A DNA stretch of 64,000 nucleotides, from the IMG/VR virus record IMGVR_UViG_2595698399_000001, positions 8,535 to 72,534 of that record; one strand, 5' to 3'. This stretch comes from a virus (Duplodnaviria; Caudoviricetes). Of the stretch, positions 18,269 to 32,023 are shown piece by piece (position 1 is the first letter of the stretch; every line of letters starts with the position of its first letter). The position numbers and the translations under genes are program-made. Under the pieces are notes generated by a model. That model was not told the DNA's origin and made no database searches. It saw only the letters and a list, made by a program, of their open reading frames with translations.

Positions 18269-18630
18269 TAGTGGAGGCGGAGGGAATCGAACCCTCGTCC
18301 AGAGCACTTAATCGTTAATGTTTTATACAGCTTTTGCGTAGTATCGTTACACACGGCATTTCTTTAGACTCTTTATGCTAGAGGGGCCAACCATAGTTAT
18401 GATTGAAGCTCCACCAAACTGTTTTGAGAAAACAGATAAAACGGTCAGCTTATACCCCTACTGCTACTTCAAGGTTAAGGATAGCGTTTACCGCTTCCAT
18501 ATTAGCTTCGATCTGTGCGTTTACCGCATTCGTGTTGTTTCCGTTTAAAGAATTTCACCTTAGTTTGTGCAGTTATCTCTCTGCGCTGAACATTAACGAC
18601 TGTTATACCCTGTCAAAACCAGTCGCCCCC
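18269..18630 (-). ncRNA. ssrA: tmRNA
   Basis: 5' GGGGGCGACTGGTTTTGAC; 3' GACGAGGGTTCGATTCCCTCCGCCTCCA with G3.U70 Ala determinant; about 360 nt; tag ORF after TAAAC at 18542-18450. Confidence 0.9.
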
Positions 18631-20067: not shown

Positions 20068-20142
20068 TAGTACTCTCTATAGGATTCGAACCTATGTTTT
20101 TCGGATGAAAACCGAATGTCCTTACCGCTAGACGAAAAGAGC
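20068..20142 (-). tRNA. tRNA-Glu(TTC), copy 1
   Basis: GCTCTTT acceptor, TTCGG-TTTTCAT-CCGAA anticodon arm, ATAGG-TTCGAAT-CCTAT. Confidence 0.85.
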
Positions 20143-22037: not shown

Positions 22038-22112
22038 TAGTACTCTCTATAGGATTCGAACCTATGTTTTTCGGATGAAAACCGAATGTCCTTACCGCTA
22101 GACGAAAAGAGC
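22038..22112 (-). tRNA. tRNA-Glu(TTC), copy 2 (identical to copy 1)
   Basis: Exact repeat of 20068..20142. Confidence 0.85.
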
Positions 22113-25597: not shown

Positions 25598-26028
25598 AAA
25601 ACAATAATTATTTATAGAATAGCAAGCAGCAAATAAATATCCTAATCAAATAAACTATGTTAAACAGGTATTAAACAGACTTTATTTATAGCAGATTGAC
25701 CCGTATAAAATGATGCGGAGAAAGTTAAGGAGTTTAATGTAAGTGACTGCAAACCAAGTAATTAACAGCCTAGAAAAGCTAAAAACTATACGCAAATTTG
25801 AAAAAATGCGAACCCCACCCCGTTAAAAAAATCGGGTTTGCCATAGCAGCGTGAGGCCCGTGGGTATAGTATGTCTTAAAACAGAAAATGCAAGAGAACT
25901 TCGAAAGTTGGTGCAAAAACATGCATAAAATGGCCCCTAAAGTACGTGACAAACTTTTTACCGAATTATTTACTTGCACCCCTCGAAAGATTTTACTACC
26001 TTTATATCTCATTTAAACAAGGATTATT

Positions 26029-26322
26029 ATGTCAGATAAATTACTAGGAGCGATCGAATTAAAAACTATTAGAATAGATACAGTATTCTACGATTATGAG
26101 GGTCAAGATTTAGGAGACGAAGAAGTAAGGGAAAGTATCCTCGGAGGAGACTATGGAGCAGTTAGTGTTTATGTAAACGACGTCTTAGCATCTTCTTACG
26201 GTGACTACTACCACGAGAAGGGTGATGTAGCAGCAGATGCTTTTGCAAGTGGCCTGTTATTTGCATTAAACGCCCCAGAAGACTTCGAGATACTCTATAC
26301 AAATTCAATAGAGGTGTATTAA
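26029..26322 (+). CDS. acidic hypothetical protein
   Basis: 97 aa, first right-arm ORF. Confidence 0.65.
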   Translation: MSDKLLGAIELKTIRIDTVFYDYEGQDLGDEEVRESILGGDYGAVSVYVNDVLASSYGDYYHEKGDVAADAFASGLLFALNAPEDFEILYTNSIEVY

Positions 26323-26527
26323 TAGTGGTAATTTTATAAAATATGGCACGTACATGGGAATCATTCGGGGAGTTTTGGTCTGAACTATCAAAAGATCAGA
26401 GGACGTACTTAAAAGAGTACATAAATAAGAAAACACGACAGGCCGTCGAACAATATAAAGAAAGTCTCGAATAACAGCTCGAATACTTTTACTATATTTG
26501 CACCTAACACTATAAACATTATAAACT

Positions 26528-26674
26528 ATGATTACATTTTTAGTAGGAGTATTGGCCGGAGCGGCAGGCTTCGCATTAATCTTGAAGAACAACCCTAAAT
26601 TACAAGCATATTTCAATAGTGCTGCAGACGAGTTGGAGCGAAAGATTGAAGAAAAAACCGGAAAAGACATCTAA
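26528..26674 (+). CDS. small membrane-anchored protein (48 aa)
   Basis: MITFLVGVLAGAAGFALILKNNPK...; TATATTTG promoter element upstream. Confidence 0.65.
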   Translation: MITFLVGVLAGAAGFALILKNNPKLQAYFNSAADELERKIEEKTGKDI

Positions 26675-26693
26675 AACAAAAATTATTTACAAG

Positions 26694-26729
26694 TAAGTTT
26701 TTTTATATCAAAAAAAAGTTGTATATTTG
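26694..26729 (+). promoter_or_regulatory. tRNA operon 1 promoter (repeat copy 1 of 3)
   Basis: TAAGTTTTTTTATATCAAAAAAAAGTTGTATATTTG; -7 TATATTTG. Confidence 0.75.
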
Positions 26730-26748
26730 TATCAAAGCAATAAGATCG

Positions 26749-26826
26749 ATGAAAACAATTATGAACATAGCGACAGATATTAGAACCAAGGGAGTGAAAC
26801 TCTTGGGGAGGAGCCGTGTACTATAA
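26749..26826 (+). CDS. putative attenuator leader peptide 1 (MKTIMNIATDIRTKGVKLLGRSRVL)
   Basis: 16 of the first 17 codons specify operon-1 tRNA amino acids; 3' end carries antiterminator strand. Confidence 0.8.
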   Translation: MKTIMNIATDIRTKGVKLLGRSRVL

Positions 26827-26853
26827 TTTCTTTAGATATAAGATGTTTATTAC

Positions 26854-26881
26854 AGCCCTCCCCTAAAAAGGAGGGTTTTTT
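26854..26881 (+). terminator. attenuator terminator 1
   Basis: GCCCTCC-loop-GGAGGGT-TTTTT directly before tRNA-Ala. Confidence 0.8.
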
Positions 26882-26884
26882 ATT

Positions 26885-26962
26885 GGGGCTGCATGAACCA
26901 AGGCAAGGCGACTTTGATTTGCAATCAGAGTGAGATGGGTTCGATACCCATGAGTTCCACAA
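26885..26962 (+). tRNA. tRNA-Ala(TGC)
   Basis: Loop TTTGCAA, G3.U70, ATGGG-TTCGATA-CCCAT. Confidence 0.8.
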
Positions 26963-26987
26963 TAAGATCCCTTACTGACACCAAATT

Positions 26988-27063
26988 GCCCTTGTAGCAA
27001 ACAGGTTGTAGGCAACCGTCTTTTAAACGGTGGGGCTAGGTTCGATTCCTAGCAGGGGCACAT
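26988..27063 (+). tRNA. tRNA-Lys(TTT)
   Basis: ACCGT-CTTTTAA-ACGGT. Confidence 0.85.
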
Positions 27064-27109
27064 AAGTAAATTAGCTTATATAATGGATTATAAGCGAATA
27101 AGGTAATAT

Positions 27110-27185
27110 TGGAGTATAGCTCAGCGGTTAGAGCACTCCCCTGATACGGGAGATGTCGTAGGTTCGAAACCTTCTACTCCAACGA
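27110..27185 (+). tRNA. tRNA-Ile(GAT)
   Basis: CTCCC-CTGATAC-GGGAG. Confidence 0.85.
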
Positions 27186-27270
27186 GGCGGAAGACTACCG
27201 AAAGAAGGAAAAAGGAAAAAAGTTGGACTAAGAGATTGTTTTTACCTCAACTCTATAAAAAGAGGAATTT

Positions 27271-27346
27271 GCGTAAGAGGCCATAGTGGAATGGCGCCTG
27301 CCTTCCAAGTAGGAGATAGCGAGTTCGAACCTCGTCTTACGCTCTT
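27271..27346 (+). tRNA. tRNA-Gly(TCC)
   Basis: CCTGC-CTTCCAA-GTAGG. Confidence 0.85.
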
Positions 27347-27353
27347 TTAAAAT

Positions 27354-27425
27354 TGTGGGTGGTCGTGGTGACCAGAGGGCCTCATAAGTCCTTATAGATG
27401 GGTTCGACTCCCATACCCGCCACAA
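27354..27425 (+). tRNA. tRNA-Met(CAT), short D-arm, unpaired 1:72
   Basis: AGGGC-CTCATAA-GTCCT; ATGGG-TTCGACT-CCCAT. Confidence 0.7.
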
Positions 27426-27497
27426 AAGTCGTTTCTACACTCTTCGGGATAAAGGGTGTTCGTACGACACTCGGCAGTTAATCGACATCTGCCAACT

Positions 27498-27577
27498 GGT
27501 CTAATAAGCGTGTTTGGTAACACGAATTGCACTGTCACTGCTCTAAAACGAGGGTTCGAATCCCTCTTAGACCGCTT
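27498..27577 (+). tRNA. tRNA-Asp(GTC)
   Basis: Loop CTGTCAC; GGTCTAA/TTAGACC-G; anticodon stem partly mismatched. Confidence 0.7.
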
Positions 27578-27584
27578 TAATTAT

Positions 27585-27661
27585 GCACTAATGACTGAAT
27601 AGGAAATGGTACTTCATTTGTAACGAAGATAATTCGGGTTCGACTCCTGATTAGTGCTCAA
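27585..27661 (+). tRNA. tRNA-Thr(TGT)
   Basis: CTTCA-TTTGTAA-CGAAG; GCACTAA/TTAGTGC. Confidence 0.75.
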
Positions 27662-27867
27662 CATACTTAATCCGCCTATCGAGAAGTTTTGAAGCGCATT
27701 AGATTAAGTGTTTTCTGAAAAAGGGGCTTAGCGAATACTAGATATCGTTAACAAAGGCCCCTTTTTATTTATCAGGATAAAAGTATTGTAATGGAGTTTT
27801 GAGTTATGGAAATAAGCTTCTCCACGTTAAAAACAAAAAAGTAGGTGTAGTAATATGCTTACCATAT

Positions 27868-27944
27868 ACCAGATTAGCTCAGCGGTTTAGAGCAGCTCTT
27901 TTACAAGGAGAAGGTCGATAGTTCGAATCTATCATTTGGTACGA
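27868..27944 (+). tRNA. tRNA-Val(TAC)
   Basis: GCTCT-TTTACAA-GGAGA. Confidence 0.8.
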
Positions 27945-28002
27945 CAGTACCTACCACACTTCTAGGAGAACGTCTCAAAGTGTCCAAGGGTAGGTCTTTT
28001 TT

Positions 28003-28076
28003 ACCTCTATAGTTTAAAGGAAGAATACGGCGCTTCTAACGCTATGGTCGGGGTTCGAATCCCTGTAGAGGTTCTT
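28003..28076 (+). tRNA. tRNA-Arg(TCT)
   Basis: CGGCG-CTTCTAA-CGCTA. Confidence 0.8.
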
Positions 28077-28078
28077 AT

Positions 28079-28151
28079 TGGAGTAAGCCTAGGTAGGTTA
28101 GCACGTCTTATATGCGTGTGGAGATGGGTTCGATTCCCTCTATTCCAACTA
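28079..28151 (+). tRNA. tRNA-Ile(TAT), short D-arm
   Basis: CACGT-CTTATAT-GCGTG; acceptor TGGAGTA as in tRNA-Ile(GAT). Confidence 0.7.
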
Positions 28152-28170
28152 TTTATAAAATAAAAAGATA

Positions 28171-28205
28171 TAAGTTTTTTTATATCAAAAAAAGTTGTAT
28201 ATTTA
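28171..28205 (+). promoter_or_regulatory. tRNA operon 2 promoter (repeat copy 2 of 3)
   Basis: TAAGTTTTTTTATATCAAAAAAAGTTGTATATTTA. Confidence 0.75.
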
Positions 28206-28209
28206 CAAT

Positions 28210-28299
28210 ATGAAAACAAACATGACATACAATAATTTCTCTTGGTATTCGAATTGTAGCTTTAGTAGCTATAATGTCGAGAGGTTGTACTTGTCTTAA
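28210..28299 (+). CDS. putative attenuator leader peptide 2 (MKTNMTYNNFSWYSNCSFSSYNVERLYLS)
   Basis: Codons 7-22 use only Y/N/F/S/W/C, the operon-2 amino acids. Confidence 0.8.
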   Translation: MKTNMTYNNFSWYSNCSFSSYNVERLYLS

Positions 28300-28348
28300 A
28301 AATATATTCATTTCTTTTATTAATTTTTGATTATTAATTTTGATTTTT

Positions 28349-28390
28349 ACCCTCTTGGTCTTTCATAGCTAGGAGGGTTTTTTGTTTTTT
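28349..28390 (+). terminator. attenuator terminator 2
   Basis: ACCCTCTTGGT-loop-GCTAGGAGGGT-TTTTTGTTTTTT before tRNA-Tyr. Confidence 0.8.
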
Positions 28391-28396
28391 ATAACT

Positions 28397-28481
28397 TGCA
28401 ACGTAAAGCTAGTGGTTCTAGCAGGCTGTCTGTAAAACAGTTCTTGAGAGGGGAGTGGTTCGATTCCGCACGGTGCAACAA
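28397..28481 (+). tRNA. tRNA-Tyr(GTA)
   Basis: GCTGT-CTGTAAA-ACAGT; long variable arm. Confidence 0.8.
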
Positions 28482-28485
28482 TAAT

Positions 28486-28578
28486 GGAAGAGTAAGCCAA
28501 GTAGGTCTACTGGTCGCTGTCTTGAAAACAGTTGGGGTTTAAAAGCCCGTGTGGGTTCGAGCCCCACTTCTTCCGCAT
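28486..28578 (+). tRNA. tRNA-Ser(TGA)
   Basis: GCTGT-CTTGAAA-ACAGT; long variable arm; G73. Confidence 0.85.
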
Positions 28579-28580
28579 TT

Positions 28581-28668
28581 AGAGAGGTGTCTGAGTGGCT
28601 TAAGGTACTACTTTGCTAAAGTAGTGGGGTTAACGCCTCCGAGGGTTCGAATCCCTTCTTCTCTACAA
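28581..28668 (+). tRNA. tRNA-Ser(GCT)
   Basis: CTACT-TTGCTAA-AGTAG; long variable arm. Confidence 0.85.
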
Positions 28669-28674
28669 ACACAC

Positions 28675-28749
28675 GGCTAGGTAGCTCAGAGGAAGAGCAG
28701 GCGCCTGTTAAGCGTCAGGTCGAGATATCGTAATTCTCCCTAGCCTCTT
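28675..28749 (+). tRNA. tRNA-Asn(GTT)
   Basis: GGCGC-CTGTTAA-GCGTC; atypical T-loop. Confidence 0.8.
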
Positions 28750-28753
28750 TAAT

Positions 28754-28828
28754 ATGTCTCAGCATAAGGTATGCAGTCGGTCTCCAAAACCGTACATGGA
28801 CAAGGTTCGATTCCTTGGGGGCGTGCAA
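28754..28828 (+). tRNA. tRNA-Trp(CCA), short D-arm
   Basis: CGGT-CTCCAAA-ACCG; CAAGG-TTCGATT-CCTTG; G73. Confidence 0.75.
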
Positions 28829-28905
28829 TAAAACAACAGAGCATCCTATAATGTAAAGGAGCCGCCATAAAATCCGAGAGAAGGTCTTGGCTGTTGTTTT
28901 TTAAT

Positions 28906-28981
28906 GCGTTAGAAGCTAACTTGGTAGAAGCACTGGCTTGAAATCCCAGAGGAGTAGGTTCGATTCCTACCTATCGCACTT
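28906..28981 (+). tRNA. tRNA-Phe(GAA)
   Basis: CTGGC-TTGAAAT-CCCAG. Confidence 0.8.
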
Positions 28982-28984
28982 ATA

Positions 28985-29057
28985 TCGGAGATCCTGACGG
29001 AGAAGGGGCCTGTCTGCAAAACTGCGCTATACCGGTTCAATTCCGGTCTCCGATTCT
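28985..29057 (+). tRNA. tRNA-Cys(GCA), divergent anticodon stem
   Basis: Loop CTGCAAA; TCGGAGA/TCTCCGA acceptor with U73. Confidence 0.65.
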
Positions 29058-29106
29058 TATGTTTGTATTTTTCGTACCTTTACTACTTAACGTTAAACAA
29101 ACAACA

Positions 29107-29400
29107 ATGAGAAGAACTACAAGAAAAACTGTGCCAACTAATAAAACTGCGCCTAAGAAAAACGTAACAATCAAATCTGATAAGAGTAGTGTTGCAAGTA
29201 CCAAGGCTAAAAAATACACTGTTAAGACAAGTGGCAAGCTTAAGAAAGAAGAAGAAGCTAGAGGAACTAGGGGTCGTAATGACGCCAATAGATCTGCAGC
29301 CTTTAAGAAAGATGTAGAGAAGGCCGGAGGTATGAGTGCATATACTAAGAAATTAACTGATGCAAAGAAGAGGGTCAAGAAGAATCCAACAAGAATCTAA
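29107..29400 (+). CDS. highly basic small protein
   Basis: MRRTTRKTVPTNK...; K/R-rich; preceded by TACCTTTA -7-like element. Confidence 0.7.
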   Translation: MRRTTRKTVPTNKTAPKKNVTIKSDKSSVASTKAKKYTVKTSGKLKKEEEARGTRGRNDANRSAAFKKDVEKAGGMSAYTKKLTDAKKRVKKNPTRI

Positions 29401-29412
29401 TATAAAACAGTA

Positions 29413-29448
29413 TAAGTTTTTTTATATCAAAAAAAAGTTGTATATTTA
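29413..29448 (+). promoter_or_regulatory. tRNA operon 3 promoter (repeat copy 3 of 3)
   Basis: TAAGTTTTTTTATATCAAAAAAAAGTTGTATATTTA. Confidence 0.75.
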
Positions 29449-29452
29449 CAAT

Positions 29453-29542
29453 ATGAACGTAACGCTATTACATCAAGAGCCCTTAGAACAACTTCGATTA
29501 CCATCGAGGGTGCCTTATTATGGGATTGATGAACTATCATAG
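29453..29542 (+). CDS. putative attenuator leader peptide 3 (MNVTLLHQEPLEQLRLPSRVPYYGIDELS)
   Basis: Codons 5-17 use only L/H/Q/E/P/R(CGA), the operon-3 amino acids. Confidence 0.8.
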   Translation: MNVTLLHQEPLEQLRLPSRVPYYGIDELS

Positions 29543-29565
29543 TTTACAACGCACAATATCCTATT

Positions 29566-29602
29566 AAGAGCCCCTTTGGTATAAACCATTGGGGCTTTTT
29601 TT
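29566..29602 (+). terminator. attenuator terminator 3
   Basis: AAGAGCCCC-TTTGGTATAAACCATT-GGGGCTTTTTTT before tRNA-Pro. Confidence 0.8.
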
Positions 29603-29606
29603 ATTT

Positions 29607-29681
29607 CGAGTAGTGACAAAATTGGCACGTGCCGACCTTGGACGTCGGAGAATGCAGGTTCGATCCCTGCCTACTCGACTT
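29607..29681 (+). tRNA. tRNA-Pro(TGG)
   Basis: CCGAC-CTTGGAC-GTCGG. Confidence 0.85.
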
Positions 29682-29687
29682 TGATTT

Positions 29688-29765
29688 GCTATCGTCTTCT
29701 AAATGGAATAGGAATCCACCCTTTCAAGGTGTGCAATGCGAGTTCAAGTCTCGTCGATAGTACGA
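29688..29765 (+). tRNA. tRNA-Glu(TTC)
   Basis: CACC-CTTTCAA-GGTG. Confidence 0.8.
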
Positions 29766-29808
29766 AGGTTGTTTGCTAGTATCTCCCAACAAAGTAGAAA
29801 CTAGACAT

Positions 29809-29883
29809 TGGAGTATGATGTAACGGTTAGCATGACTGGTTTTGAGCCAGTTCGTCGGGGTTCGAATCCCTGTACTCCATCTT
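29809..29883 (+). tRNA. tRNA-Gln(TTG)
   Basis: ACTGG-TTTTGAG-CCAGT. Confidence 0.85.
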
Positions 29884-29891
29884 ATAAGAGT

Positions 29892-29968
29892 CCTCCGTTG
29901 CGCCAAATTGGAAAGGCGGTCAAGCTGTGAACTTGATTACATGGGTTCGATTCCCATACGGTTGTCCA
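29892..29968 (+). tRNA. tRNA-His(GTG), mismatched acceptor stem
   Basis: TCAAG-CTGTGAA-CTTGA; good D and T arms; acceptor CCTCCGT/ACGGTTG has two mismatches. Confidence 0.65.
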
Positions 29969-30004
29969 ACACGGGGTAGTGTCATAATGTCATACCCCTT
30001 TTAT

Positions 30005-30090
30005 GCCGGAGTGAGTAAAAAAGAGAATGGCAGATCATTGGGTCTTAGAAACCCAGACTTTTGGGGGTTCGAATCCCTCCTCCGGTACTT
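30005..30090 (+). tRNA. tRNA-Leu(TAG)
   Basis: TGGGT-CTTAGAA-ACCCA. Confidence 0.75.
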
Positions 30091-30096
30091 ATTAAT

Positions 30097-30182
30097 GCAT
30101 CCATGGTGGAAAGGGCTATACACTACAGGCTTAAAACCTGTCGCCGAAAGGATTGGGGGTTCGAATCCCTCTGGATGCACTT
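30097..30182 (+). tRNA. tRNA-Leu(TAA)
   Basis: ACAGG-CTTAAAA-CCTGT; long variable arm. Confidence 0.85.
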
Positions 30183-30186
30183 TCAC

Positions 30187-30261
30187 ACTTCTATAGCTTA
30201 ACGGAAAAGCGTTCCGCTACGAACGGATAGATTGGGGGTTCGAATCCCTCTAGAAGTTCTT
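30187..30261 (+). tRNA. tRNA-Arg(ACG)
   Basis: TCCG-CTACGAA-CGGA. Confidence 0.85.
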
Positions 30262-30265
30262 AAAC

Positions 30266-30298
30266 AAAAAAAGCCATCTAATTAAAGGTGGCTTTCTT
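30266..30298. terminator. terminator closing the tRNA array (possibly bidirectional)
   Basis: AAAAAAAGCCATCT-AATTAA-AGGTGGCTTTCTT. Confidence 0.7.
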
Positions 30299-31049
30299 AT
30301 TTTCAACTGGTGGTTGGTGCTAGGCTAATTTGGATTTGCCCCTAATTTTAAAAGATAGGGCATCCTTCACCTTGCTATTTTTTCGTTTATAAACTCGAGC
30401 AGTCGAATCTTCTTTCTTAGAATCCAACTTACTATTCTTCTTACTTTCTATTTTATGGTCTTTATATCTCATATCTTATCTCGGGGCTAGGTTATCTATA
30501 TTCTATTATATCTATATTTATTATCTAATAATATACTTTAGGTAATCCTCTCTGGATATAGCTTCGCTAAAGAGTAAAACCCGTTAGAGTGATACAATTT
30601 AGACGAAAACATATAACTTAATTTGGTTTAGAAGCTTGCGCTCTTTAGTATAAACCTCCTGTTATAATGGGAGCCATAAATGGCGGAGGAATTGCCTCTC
30701 TTACTCCAAACACTCCTCAGTGTTCCTTCGCTCGAATAACTATCTTAGCACGCCTATCCTTGGCCAGAACGATATGTAGCCCGACTAACTACTTCCCTAT
30801 TCGCTAGGTTCTTTATCTTCGGTACTTAGTTTGAGTAAGTCAAACCCTTAGAAACTCTTCGTATGTAATATGTTGTAAATATAGTAAAAATAAAGCGTGT
30901 ATGCAAATATACAAATAATTATTTTATACTTTTTTACCCCCCCCAAATAATTTAATTATGTAAAACGCTAATAGTCAACAACTTATAAAATAAATTAAAA
31001 ATAATTGAAAATAAATTAGGTTTAACAGACTTTATGTACTATCTTTGTA

Positions 31050-31309: not shown

Positions 31310-32023
31310 ATGGATAATAAGAAATACGTAGCATACTACAGGGCGTCGACAGAAAGCCAAAGAGATGGAATAGGTCTAGAAGTTCAAAAGAGTTCGGTAG
31401 AGGCGTTTGTTAAGTCTTACGGCGGAACTATAGTAGAAGAGGTTAGCGAGATAATCTCGGGTGGGGCCCAAGTTCGAGAAGGATTTGATAAGGCATTAGA
31501 ACTTTGTAAGAAACACTCTGCGGTATTACTGGTTCACCGCATAGATAGATTATCTAGAGCAGGGTTTATGACCATAGCAAAGCTAGAGGAGAAGGGTGTT
31601 CCTTTTATAGAAGCTGATTCACCTCACGATAGCGAGTTCTCTAAAAACATCAAGTTCTTAATTGCTAAAGAAGAAAAAGATAAAACTCAGAGAAGGGTAA
31701 AAGACGCCTTAGGCCAGATAAAGGCCAATATAGAATCTGACGGATACCATATTACTAAAGCCGGTGATCGAATCACTTCTTTAGGCAACCCTCAGAATCT
31801 CTCTGATATGGCCAGAGAGCGCTCTAAAGTAATTAGAAAGGCAAAGGCCATTGCTAACGAGAACAACCGTAGAGCGTACGCTATGGCATCTAGAATGAAG
31901 TCTAACAAGAGTACTTTAAAGCAGATAGCAGATTACCTTAATAAAAACGGATTTGAAACATCTAAAGGAAATAAATTTTACCCAATACAAGTAAGCAACT
32001 TAATCAAATTATATGAAAACTAA
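31310..32023 (+). CDS. serine recombinase/resolvase
   Basis: YVAYYRASTESQ (catalytic Ser), LLVHRIDRLSR, C-terminal LKQIADYLNKNGF.T.KG. Confidence 0.9.
   Translation: MDNKKYVAYYRASTESQRDGIGLEVQKSSVEAFVKSYGGTIVEEVSEIISGGAQVREGFDKALELCKKHSAVLLVHRIDRLSRAGFMTIAKLEEKGVPFIEADSPHDSEFSKNIKFLIAKEEKDKTQRRVKDALGQIKANIESDGYHITKAGDRITSLGNPQNLSDMARERSKVIRKAKAIANENNRRAYAMASRMKSNKSTLKQIADYLNKNGFETSKGNKFYPIQVSNLIKLYEN

What the first reader, a model, noticed from the sequence alone, without database searches (positions are those of the whole stretch)
28210..28390. Attenuator 2: 16 consecutive Y/N/F/S/W/C codons upstream of the Tyr-Ser-Ser-Asn-Trp-Phe-Cys block
Codons 7-22 (YNNFSWYSNCSFSSYN) use only this block's amino acids, with both TCN and AGY serines. 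Directly after them, GTCGAGAGG (28276-28284) can pair, with G-U pairs, to CCTCTTGGT (28351-28359), the 5' arm of the 11-bp terminator. An AT-rich spacer separates the two strands.
Basis: seen in the sequence. Interest (0 to 1): 0.85.

Follow-up and report, generated by a model that had tools for sequence, protein, structure and literature searches.

The report
Leader-peptide attenuator for phage tRNA genes
A short upstream reading frame made almost entirely of Tyr, Ser, Asn, Trp, Phe and Cys codons, followed by a switchable terminator, most likely lets this marine phage transcribe its Tyr-Ser-Ser-Asn-Trp-Phe-Cys tRNA genes only when those tRNAs run short, a form of tRNA gene control I could not find described.

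Summary
The 29-codon ORF 28210-28299 has 16 consecutive codons (7-22) that are all readable by the seven tRNAs encoded directly downstream. This is the longest such run in any frame of the 64-kb window; 7e-5 runs of that length are expected by chance. It is followed by an 11-bp intrinsic terminator whose 5' arm can pair with GTCGAGAGG right after the run.

It is one of three units in this Cellulophaga podophage, each built as promoter, leader ORF, terminator, tRNA block. Each leader spells the amino acids of its own block, and the three blocks together cover all 20.

I found 26 non-redundant units in phages, viral contigs and metagenome contigs. Another 11 precede small tRNA clusters, 8 of them in genome assemblies (6 titled Mucilaginibacter) and 3 on metagenome contigs. 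Leader composition follows block composition when tRNAs are lost or moved. Arg codons match the block's Arg isoacceptor. The antiterminator strand matches its own terminator better than other units' terminators (0 of 20,000 permutations).

Five tRNA-rich phages of other host phyla show nothing similar. Rfam has no matching family, and ten literature searches found no description.

Best reading: ribosome-mediated, multivalent attenuation that gives feedback control of tRNA supply. There is no experimental proof.

The parts
28176..28205 (+). Promoter-like box repeated before all three leaders. It ends in a Bacteroidota -7 element (TATATTTA, 28198-28205), 4 nt before the ATG, so a leaderless transcript is predicted.
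   Evidence: The position rule for the -7 element (-12 to -5, TSS 4-5 nt downstream) comes from passages of PMC6847099.
28210..28299 (+). Leader ORF 2: 29 codons plus stop, MKTNMTYNNFSWYSNCSFSSYNVERLYLS.
   Evidence: It is 100% identical in Calle_1.
28228..28275 (+). Regulatory run, codons 7-22. All 16 are readable by the seven tRNAs of block 2.
   Evidence: longest run in the window, expectation 7e-5.
28232..28241 (+). Region 1. It pairs with region 2 in the minimum-energy fold when no ribosome is present.
28276..28288 (+). Region 2, the 5' strand of the antiterminator (GTCGAGAGG plus 4 nt). It pairs either with region 1 or with the terminator's 5' arm.
28349..28390 (+). Intrinsic terminator: 5' arm 28349-28359 (region 3), loop 28360-28367, 3' arm 28368-28378 (region 4), T-run 28379-28390.
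   Evidence: In Calle_1 a G-U pair of the stem is an A-U pair.
28397..29056 (+). tRNA block 2: Tyr(GUA), Ser(UGA), Ser(GCU), Asn(GUU), Trp(CCA), Phe(GAA), Cys(GCA).
26749..26877 (+). Sister unit 1: leader MKTIMNIATDIRTKGVKLLGRSRVL (26749-26826) and terminator 26854-26877. It precedes block 1 (26884-28149): Ala, Lys, Ile, Gly, Met, Asp, Thr, Val, Arg(UCU), Ile(UAU).
29453..29603 (+). Sister unit 3: leader MNVTLLHQEPLEQLRLPSRVPYYGIDELS (29453-29542) and terminator 29569-29596 with T-run. It precedes block 3 (29607-30259): Pro, Glu, Gln, His, Leu(UAG), Leu(UAA), Arg(ACG).

Best explanation
This is a ribosome-mediated (leader-peptide) transcription attenuator that controls a phage tRNA operon.

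How it starts (inferred): host RNA polymerase starts at a Bacteroidota-type promoter so that the transcript begins at or next to the AUG. A ribosome translates the 29-codon leader while the polymerase moves on.

Off state (inferred from structure models): if charged Tyr, Ser (both families), Asn, Trp, Phe and Cys tRNAs are plentiful, the ribosome runs over region 2 (28276-28288) toward the stop codon. Region 3 then stays free, the terminator 28349-28378 forms, and transcription ends before the tRNA genes.

On state (inferred): if any of these tRNAs is scarce, the ribosome stalls within codons 7-16. Region 1 is covered and region 2 is free to pair with region 3. The terminator cannot form, and the seven tRNA genes are transcribed.

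Consequence: because the products are the very tRNAs that the leader tests, the circuit is negative feedback on tRNA supply. Units 1 and 3 do the same for the other two tRNA groups. The most likely use is to make phage tRNAs on demand when the host pool falls, through host shut-off, heavy late translation, or tRNA-cleaving defences.

Shown here: the sequence elements, their statistics and their covariation. Inferred: translation of the leader, the switch itself and the physiological signal.
For: 1. Codon match. All 16 codons of the run are readable by block 2. This is the longest such run in the window, with 7e-5 expected by chance. Core codons of the three leaders sort by block as 15/1/0, 0/16/0 and 0/0/13.

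2. Recurrence. I found 26 non-redundant units with the same order of parts. They come from this phage, Maribacter phage Panino, Cellulophaga phage phi4:1, IMG/VR contigs and metagenome contigs. Their tRNA sequences are strongly diverged.

3. Completeness. In 20 curated units, 136 of 139 block tRNAs have at least one cognate codon in their own leader before region 2.

4. Isoacceptor specificity.
- The Arg codon inside the run is CGH in 13 of 13 Pro-type leaders, whose blocks carry Arg(ACG).
- Arg codons are AGA in 4 of 4 cases in the 3 Ala-type leaders, whose blocks carry Arg(UCU) in two of the three.
- Two Pro-type leaders (L289, L475) also have an AGA just after the run.

5. Covariation of leader content with block content.
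- 11 of 11 Pro-type blocks with tRNA-Glu have Glu codons in the run; 3 of 3 without it (L119, L120, L476) have none.
- In the L116 minus-strand block, Asn has moved out and Leu(UAA) has moved in. Its leader MKKFSFCLSYWLSFY... has no Asn codon and two TTA codons.
- The L090 block is Leu-Leu-Ser-Ser-Tyr, and its leader is MKITSTYSSLSLLYS.

6. Antiterminator.
- In 18 of 18 units a 5-12 bp complement of the terminator's 5' arm lies just after the run.
- 13 of 18 beat 300 shuffles at p<=0.05.
- The sequences differ between units, yet each fits its own arm: mean rank 3.3 of 19 (10 expected), 8 of 19 rank first, and 0 of 20,000 permutations reach the observed sum.

7. Ribosome-mask folds of the nascent transcript. 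In 18 of 18 units the 5' arm is paired upstream when the ribosome is stalled early or mid-leader, and is released when the ribosome covers region 2. For this unit the arm bases paired are 0 with no ribosome, 10 or more with the A site at codons 4-16, and 0 with it at codons 17 to stop, apart from 4 bases at one late position.

8. Frame and start. The run is in frame with an ATG 4 nt after a -7 box in 15 of 19 units, including L121_Tyr, which was not found by the search pattern. Host Flavobacteria show signs of leader-peptide attenuation upstream of amino-acid operons (PMC9723704, passages).

9. Specificity. Across five tRNA-rich phages of Bacillus, Pseudomonas (2), Klebsiella and Aeromonas, 0 of 27 gaps before tRNA runs score E<0.01 in the same scan. 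In the family loci, 10 of 32 do.
Against: - There is no experimental evidence. The RNA data are assembled contigs only. One contig (28187-29412 in two runs, 28176-29437 in a third) spans the terminator, which could be read-through RNA or DNA. Contigs cannot show 3' ends or levels.
- At equilibrium the terminator (-15.8 kcal/mol) always beats the antiterminator (-11.1), so the switch has to be kinetic.
- 5 of 18 antiterminator pairings are no better than shuffles at p = 0.05.
- In several units, unit 3 of this phage among them, the simple model leaves region 2 free again once the ribosome reaches the stop codon. It also pairs the arm upstream in 12 of 18 units when no ribosome is present.
- Leaderless mRNAs are only 5.5% of mRNAs in F. 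psychrophilum. The -7 box here ends in A, not the nearly invariant G.
- Trp and Cys have only one codon each.
- Exceptions to the codon match:
  - Leader 1 has an Asn codon.
  - Panino's Ala-type leader has two AGA codons, but I found no Arg(UCU) gene.
  - Met (twice) and Val are not represented in the run of their own leader.
  - L559 keeps Tyr and Ser codons although its block lacks those tRNAs.
- Terminator-like hairpins also occur inside blocks 1 and 2.
Confidence: 0.85

Rival explanations
1. The attenuator mechanism is the same, but the selected signal is amino-acid starvation of the host, as in classical biosynthetic operons, not shortage of tRNA molecules.
For: Clues to leader-peptide attenuation were reported upstream of amino-acid biosynthesis operons in a Flavobacterium (PMC9723704).
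Against: Making more tRNA does not relieve amino-acid starvation. The leaders match isoacceptors, not just amino acids: CGH versus AGA for Arg, TTA versus CTN for Leu, and ATA with tRNA-Ile(UAU). They also lose codons when a tRNA gene leaves the block, which ties them to the genes rather than to amino-acid pools.
Confidence: 0.08
2. The leader is translated, but control does not work through the hairpin switch. For example, a stalled ribosome might alter RNA decay or processing, or Rho access, and the hairpin might simply end a short leader transcript.
For: In two RNA runs from two studies, a short contig over leader 3 (29428-29526/31) has a depth near 2400, against about 280 downstream (weak, contigs only). 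Equilibrium folds always keep the terminator.
Against: Region 2 is specifically complementary to its own terminator arm across 19 units with different sequences (0 of 20,000 permutations). It sits at the same place relative to the run in 18 of 18 units. That is hard to explain unless the pairing is functional.
Confidence: 0.04
3. The ORF is not regulatory. It is a chance ORF or encodes a micro-peptide, and the hairpin is an ordinary terminator or processing signal.
For: The ORF is short and unannotated in Calle_1. Similar small ORFs are annotated only as hypothetical proteins in Panino and phi4:1.
Against: The chance expectation is 7e-5. What is conserved is composition, not peptide sequence, and it follows block content. 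The terminator lies downstream of the promoter and upstream of the genes. Control phages show no such ORFs (0 of 27 gaps).
Confidence: 0.02
4. The leader RNA senses tRNAs directly by codon-anticodon pairing without a ribosome, like a T-box with many specifiers.
For: The codons are cognate to the downstream tRNAs.
Against: There is no T-box or other Rfam match at E<=1 in 26000-31000. The codons form one reading frame that starts at an ATG placed 4 nt after the -7 box and ends at a stop near region 2. An N-terminal MK(T) is present in most units.
Confidence: 0.01

Closest known systems
Multivalent leader-peptide attenuators of enterobacterial ilvGMEDA and thr operons (recalled from textbooks, not from a call)
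   Same: A short leader ORF holds regulatory codons for several amino acids, followed by mutually exclusive antiterminator and terminator hairpins. Ribosome stalling gives read-through.
   Different: Those control amino-acid biosynthesis enzymes and use two or three amino acids with many repeats. Here the controlled genes are tRNAs, 6 to 9 amino acids are written once to five times each, and the codon list matches the isoacceptors of the block.
E. coli trp attenuator (trpL), the 1:2 / 2:3 / 3:4 model (recalled)
   Same: Unit 2 has all four regions: region 1 at 28232-28241, region 2 at 28276-28288, region 3 at 28349-28359 and region 4 at 28368-28378. The antiterminator is weaker than the terminator, and termination is predicted when no ribosome is present.
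   Different: There is no Shine-Dalgarno sequence and a leaderless start is predicted. The spacer between regions 2 and 3 is 60 nt and AT-rich. The target is a tRNA operon in a phage.
pheST attenuator with the pheM leader in E. coli (recalled)
   Same: A leader peptide senses charged tRNA and feeds back on a component of the translation apparatus.
   Different: It controls a tRNA synthetase for a single amino acid, not the tRNA genes.
T-box riboswitches (recalled)
   Same: Transcription attenuation responds to tRNA status.
   Different: T-boxes bind one uncharged tRNA directly without a ribosome. No T-box match was found here.
Phage tRNAs as a counter to tRNA-cleaving defences (PMC11555353, PMC12409363, PMC13056530; search listing and abstracts only)
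   Same: Phage-encoded tRNAs replace host tRNAs that have been depleted.
   Different: None of those abstracts mentions a sensor that switches the phage tRNA genes on. This element would provide one.

Membership tests
Ribosome-mediated (leader-peptide) transcription attenuators | A short ORF upstream of the regulated genes with a cluster of codons for the relevant amino acids | tested here: met
   29-codon ORF; 16 of 16 run codons are cognate to block 2. Longest such run in the window, expectation 7e-5.
Ribosome-mediated (leader-peptide) transcription attenuators | An intrinsic terminator between the leader ORF and the regulated genes | tested here: met
   11-bp stem at 28349-28378 plus T-run, 6 nt before tRNA-Tyr. 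The same holds in all 18 units examined.
Ribosome-mediated (leader-peptide) transcription attenuators | An alternative antiterminator pairing that uses the terminator's 5' arm | tested here: met
   -11.1 kcal/mol, p = 0.03 against shuffles. Own-arm specificity across 19 units: 0 of 20,000 permutations.
Ribosome-mediated (leader-peptide) transcription attenuators | The position of the ribosome decides which hairpin forms | tested here: inconclusive
   Masked folds behave as expected for unit 2 and broadly for all 18 units. In several units region 2 is free again at the stop codon, and 12 of 18 pair the arm without any ribosome. This is a model only.
Ribosome-mediated (leader-peptide) transcription attenuators | The leader is translated, and read-through rises when the cognate charged tRNA falls | not testable with these tools
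   Only assembled RNA contigs were available.
Curated Rfam leader families (His, Thr, Leu, Trp leaders and the like) | A match to a family covariance model | tested here: not met
   cmscan at E<=1 over 26000-31000 gave tRNA-type hits and a few weak, sub-threshold hits to unrelated families, none a leader or T-box family. In four Mucilaginibacter loci (E<=0.1) likewise no leader family matched.
T-box riboswitch | A specifier loop and T-box motif recognisable by the Rfam model | tested here: not met
   No T-box hit at E<=1.

The most novel reading that the evidence does not exclude
tRNA genes can regulate themselves through a leader peptide written in their own codons. In this reading, the three units of this phage form a portable, complete 20-amino-acid tRNA supply. 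It stays silent while host tRNAs suffice and switches on, group by group, when a tRNA disappears, for example after cleavage by a host anticodon nuclease. The same principle operates at small tRNA clusters in Mucilaginibacter genome assemblies, so it would be a general and so far undescribed mode of tRNA gene control in Bacteroidota and their viruses.
Probability: 0.55. Interest if true: 0.93.

Novelty: new variant of a known kind. Interest (0 to 1): 0.88.

Why it matters
Bacterial tRNA genes are generally thought to be controlled at the promoter (growth rate, stringent response; recalled). A leader peptide that reads out the availability of the exact tRNAs encoded behind it would be direct product feedback on tRNA supply. 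It would also explain why these tRNA genes keep the same three groupings across unrelated phages.

It bears on why phages carry tRNAs at all. An inducible, self-limiting set fits the idea that phage tRNAs replace host tRNAs lost during infection or cut by defence systems. It also gives that idea a testable sensor.

The leaders are short and modular, and their codon content defines what they sense. That makes them candidate parts for reporters of the in-vivo availability of chosen tRNAs.

Tried and rejected
- Equilibrium folding of the full leader always keeps the terminator, so it cannot show the switch. I replaced it with nascent-transcript folds.
- tRNA-based patterns for finding more loci were dropped. 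The tRNAs of different units share too few conserved bases.
- A leader-based pattern gave 1 unit among 117 matches.
- Promoter-plus-start patterns gave 8 of 90, 14 of 166 (cumulative), 6 of 120 and 11 of 119 matches with tRNAs downstream. All other matches were unrelated and were dropped.
- L028 scored E = 0.03 in the unbiased scan, but the run lies in a longer ORF. I rejected it as chance.
- RNA evidence: five small SOLiD RNA runs from two studies hold 78-87% of the sampled words. Only contigs could be laid, and these show neither ends, strand nor levels. Breaks at 26694-26728, 28176-28187 and 29412-29437 coincide with the repeated promoter box. I draw no conclusion about termination from them.
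- Pfam scans of ten neighbouring ORFs gave no tRNA-related enzyme.
- A DNA search of 201 genomes of the family of G001 gave only 3 genomes with matches longer than 100 nt over the leader. The other 36 matching genomes had short matches of 24-66 nt.
- Supplementary files of papers were closed and not consulted. The tables of structured 5' regions in PMC9723704 could bear on whether tRNA leaders were seen in a host.
- Literature: searches found no paper describing a leader peptide or attenuator in front of tRNA genes. Searches served other questions. The library lacks most subscription journals, so absence from print is not proven.

Full report
**What is there**

The window lies in a virus record of 72,534 bases. 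Its tRNA region (26600-30400) is 96% identical to Cellulophaga phage Calle_1, family Pervagoviridae.

At 28210-28299 there is a 29-codon ORF, MKTNMTYNNFSWYSNCSFSSYNVERLYLS. Codons 7-22 use only Tyr, Asn, Phe, Ser, Trp and Cys, and serine is written in both codon families.

An 11-bp hairpin with a T-run follows at 28349-28390. Six bases later the tRNA genes begin: Tyr(GUA), Ser(UGA), Ser(GCU), Asn, Trp, Phe, Cys. ARAGORN at default settings finds four of the seven and finds all seven at a lower threshold. Relatives annotate Trp and Tyr at the homologous places.

**Chance**

Codons readable by block 2 make up 26.9% of all six-frame triplets of the window. The 16-codon run is the longest in the window, the next longest is 12, and 7e-5 runs of that length are expected.

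The unit is one of three:
- Leader 1 (26749-26826) precedes Ala, Lys, Ile, Gly, Met, Asp, Thr, Val, Arg(UCU) and Ile(UAU).
- Leader 3 (29453-29542) precedes Pro, Glu, Gln, His, Leu(UAG), Leu(UAA) and Arg(ACG).

I read the Ala and Leu(UAG) genes of this window by eye. No tRNA finder called them confidently, but Panino and phi4:1 annotate tRNAs at the same places.

Core codons sort cleanly by block: 15/1/0, 0/16/0 and 0/0/13. The three blocks together cover all 20 amino acids. A promoter-like box of about 35 nt is repeated before each leader.

**Relatives**

The same order of parts occurs in Maribacter phage Panino and in the 146-kb Cellulophaga phage phi4:1, which belongs to a different genus. 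Pattern scans of IMG/VR and of metagenome contigs added more. In all I count 26 non-redundant units. Their tRNAs are strongly diverged, so the design is old or mobile.

- **Completeness:** in 20 curated units, 136 of 139 block tRNAs have a cognate codon in their own leader before the antiterminator strand. The three misses are Met (twice) and Val.
- **Arg codons:** the Arg codon inside the run is CGH in 13 of 13 Pro-type leaders (blocks with Arg-ACG). Arg codons are AGA in 4 of 4 cases in the three Ala-type leaders. Two Pro-type leaders (L289, L475) also carry an AGA just after the run.
- **Glu:** all 11 Pro-type blocks with tRNA-Glu have Glu codons in the run. The three without an intact tRNA-Glu (L119, L120, L476; two of them keep a T-arm remnant there) have none.
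- **L116, opposite strand:** the block is Tyr, Leu(UAA), Ser, Ser, Trp, Phe, Cys, and Asn lies elsewhere. Its leader MKKFSFCLSYWLSFY... has no Asn codon and two TTA codons. The Pro-type leader of the same contig, whose block has lost Leu(UAA), uses only CTN for Leu within the run.
- **L090:** a block of Leu, Leu, Ser, Ser, Tyr follows the leader MKITSTYSSLSLLYS.

**Structure**

In 18 of 18 units a 5-12 bp complement of the terminator's 5' arm lies directly after the run, and 13 of 18 beat 300 shuffles at p<=0.05. The paired sequences differ widely between units. Each upstream strand nevertheless fits its own arm better than the arms of other units: mean rank 3.3 of 19, 8 of 19 ranked first, and 0 of 20,000 permutations as good.

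For unit 2 the minimum-energy fold also pairs 28232-28241 with 28279-28288, giving the classical four regions.

Folding the nascent transcript without the 3' arm, with a 30-nt ribosome mask, gives this for unit 2:
- No ribosome: the arm is free.
- A site at codons 4-16: 10 or more arm bases are paired upstream.
- A site at codons 17 to stop: the arm is free (4 bases pair at one late position).

All 18 units show pairing for early stalls and loss of pairing when the ribosome covers region 2. The no-ribosome and stop-codon states are less uniform.

At equilibrium the terminator always wins, so the choice must be kinetic, as in the trp attenuator (recalled).

**Start of the transcript**

Passages of PMC6847099 place the Bacteroidota -7 element at -12 to -5, with the start site 4-5 nt downstream. 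In 15 of 19 units the ATG lies exactly 4 nt after such a box, so a leaderless mRNA is predicted. Nine of those 15 were found with a pattern that required this spacing. Six were not: units 2 and 3 of this window, Panino Pro, phi4:1 Pro, phi4:1 Tyr and L121_Tyr.

Leaderless mRNAs are only 5.5% in F. psychrophilum. The same paper reports signs of leader-peptide attenuation upstream of amino-acid biosynthesis operons (PMC9723704, passages).

**Controls and breadth**

I wrote an unbiased scan that scores the longest run of block-readable codons in any frame upstream of any tRNA run.
- It recovers 10 of 32 gaps in the family loci at E<0.01.
- It finds 0 of 8 in other IMG/VR loci.
- It finds 0 of 27 in five tRNA-rich phages of Bacillus, Pseudomonas (two), Klebsiella and Aeromonas; the best score there is 0.21.

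A scan of one genome per prokaryotic species hit mostly Bacteroidota. Six Mucilaginibacter assemblies carry the same design in front of small tRNA clusters:
- MKTTICIQCPSPILIYQRR before Pro, Ile(UAU), Cys.
- MKTTTIQIQLPQPIYRR before Pro, Ile(UAU), Gln.
- MKTISIQSQFSQLIYQR before Pro, Ile(UAU), Phe, Gln.

In these leaders Ile is written ATA. Two more genomes and three metagenome contigs add variants, for example MKTITIPCQLPQPNYRR before Pro, Ile, Cys, Gln. So the principle is not confined to phages.

**RNA data**

Five small RNA runs from two studies contain most of the region, but only as assembled contigs. One contig crosses the unit 2 terminator. In two runs a short, deep contig covers leader 3, with shallower contigs downstream. 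Neither observation can show termination.

**Prior knowledge**

Rfam has no matching family. Eight full-text searches aimed at this question found no description of a leader peptide or attenuator in front of tRNA genes. The papers on Panino and on a related Cellulophaga phage discuss tRNAs but mention no leader (passages).

The closest known systems are the multivalent ilv and thr attenuators and the pheST attenuator (recalled). Recent work shows that phage tRNAs can counter tRNA-cleaving defences (abstracts), which suggests one use for an inducible set.

**Verdict**

This is a real element, almost certainly functional. It is best explained as multivalent leader-peptide attenuation that gives feedback control of a tRNA operon. 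The mechanism class is known. The target, the block-specific codon list, and the spread through Bacteroidota phages and some Bacteroidota genomes appear to be new. Confidence in the mechanism is 0.85. The physiological trigger remains open.

Noticed in passing
L335, L336, L371, L384, L393, L401 (genome contigs); L416, L417; L468, L509, L541: Genome assemblies titled Mucilaginibacter, two untitled genomes of the same family sample, and three metagenome contigs carry a short leaderless ORF and terminator in front of small tRNA clusters (Pro(UGG), Ile(UAU), plus Cys, Gln, Phe or Thr). Cys, Gln and Phe codons in the leader follow the cluster's content, and Ile is written ATA. I did not check whether these loci lie in mobile elements.
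   Followed up: partly
window 20070-20142 and 22040-22112, minus strand: Two identical extra tRNA-Glu(UUC) genes lie between minus-strand ORFs, outside the three regulated blocks. They differ from the block 3 tRNA-Glu.
   Followed up: partly
window 18271-18630, minus strand: ARAGORN calls a tmRNA gene. Panino also has an annotated tmRNA inside its tRNA region. I did not verify it.
   Followed up: no
window 27725-27760, 27950-28002, 28872-28892: Hairpins followed by T-runs lie inside blocks 1 and 2, between tRNA genes. They could be partial terminators or processing signals. No leader ORF matching the tRNAs behind them was seen.
   Followed up: no
window 29059-29400, plus strand: A 113-aa lysine-rich ORF sits between block 2 and unit 3. 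Calle_1 annotates its homologue as a structural protein. It has no Pfam match and lies on the same RNA contig as block 2.
   Followed up: partly
window 26528-26674, plus strand; L002 6187-6336: A 48-aa ORF ending in ...EEKTGKDI lies directly upstream of the Ala-type leader in both this phage and Panino. In Panino the leader has no promoter box of its own and may be co-transcribed with this ORF.
   Followed up: no
window 26884-26960 and 30006-30085: Two tRNA-like genes are not called by ARAGORN, even at low thresholds. One is Ala(UGC) with a G3:U70 pair and the other is Leu(UAG). Calle_1 annotates the second as tRNA of undetermined type. They may be unusual or decaying.
   Followed up: partly
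L090 1140-1212: A tRNA with anticodon CUA (an amber-suppressor type) lies on a 107-kb viral contig that also has a Leu-Leu-Ser-Ser-Tyr unit.
   Followed up: no
L559 (metagenome contig): A Tyr-type leader keeps its Tyr and Ser codons, but about 140 nt of non-tRNA sequence stands where Tyr and Ser tRNAs are expected. This may be a recent deletion.
   Followed up: partly
window 31310-32023, plus strand: A serine recombinase (Resolvase domain, E = 3e-18) lies just beyond the tRNA region, as in Calle_1.
   Followed up: no
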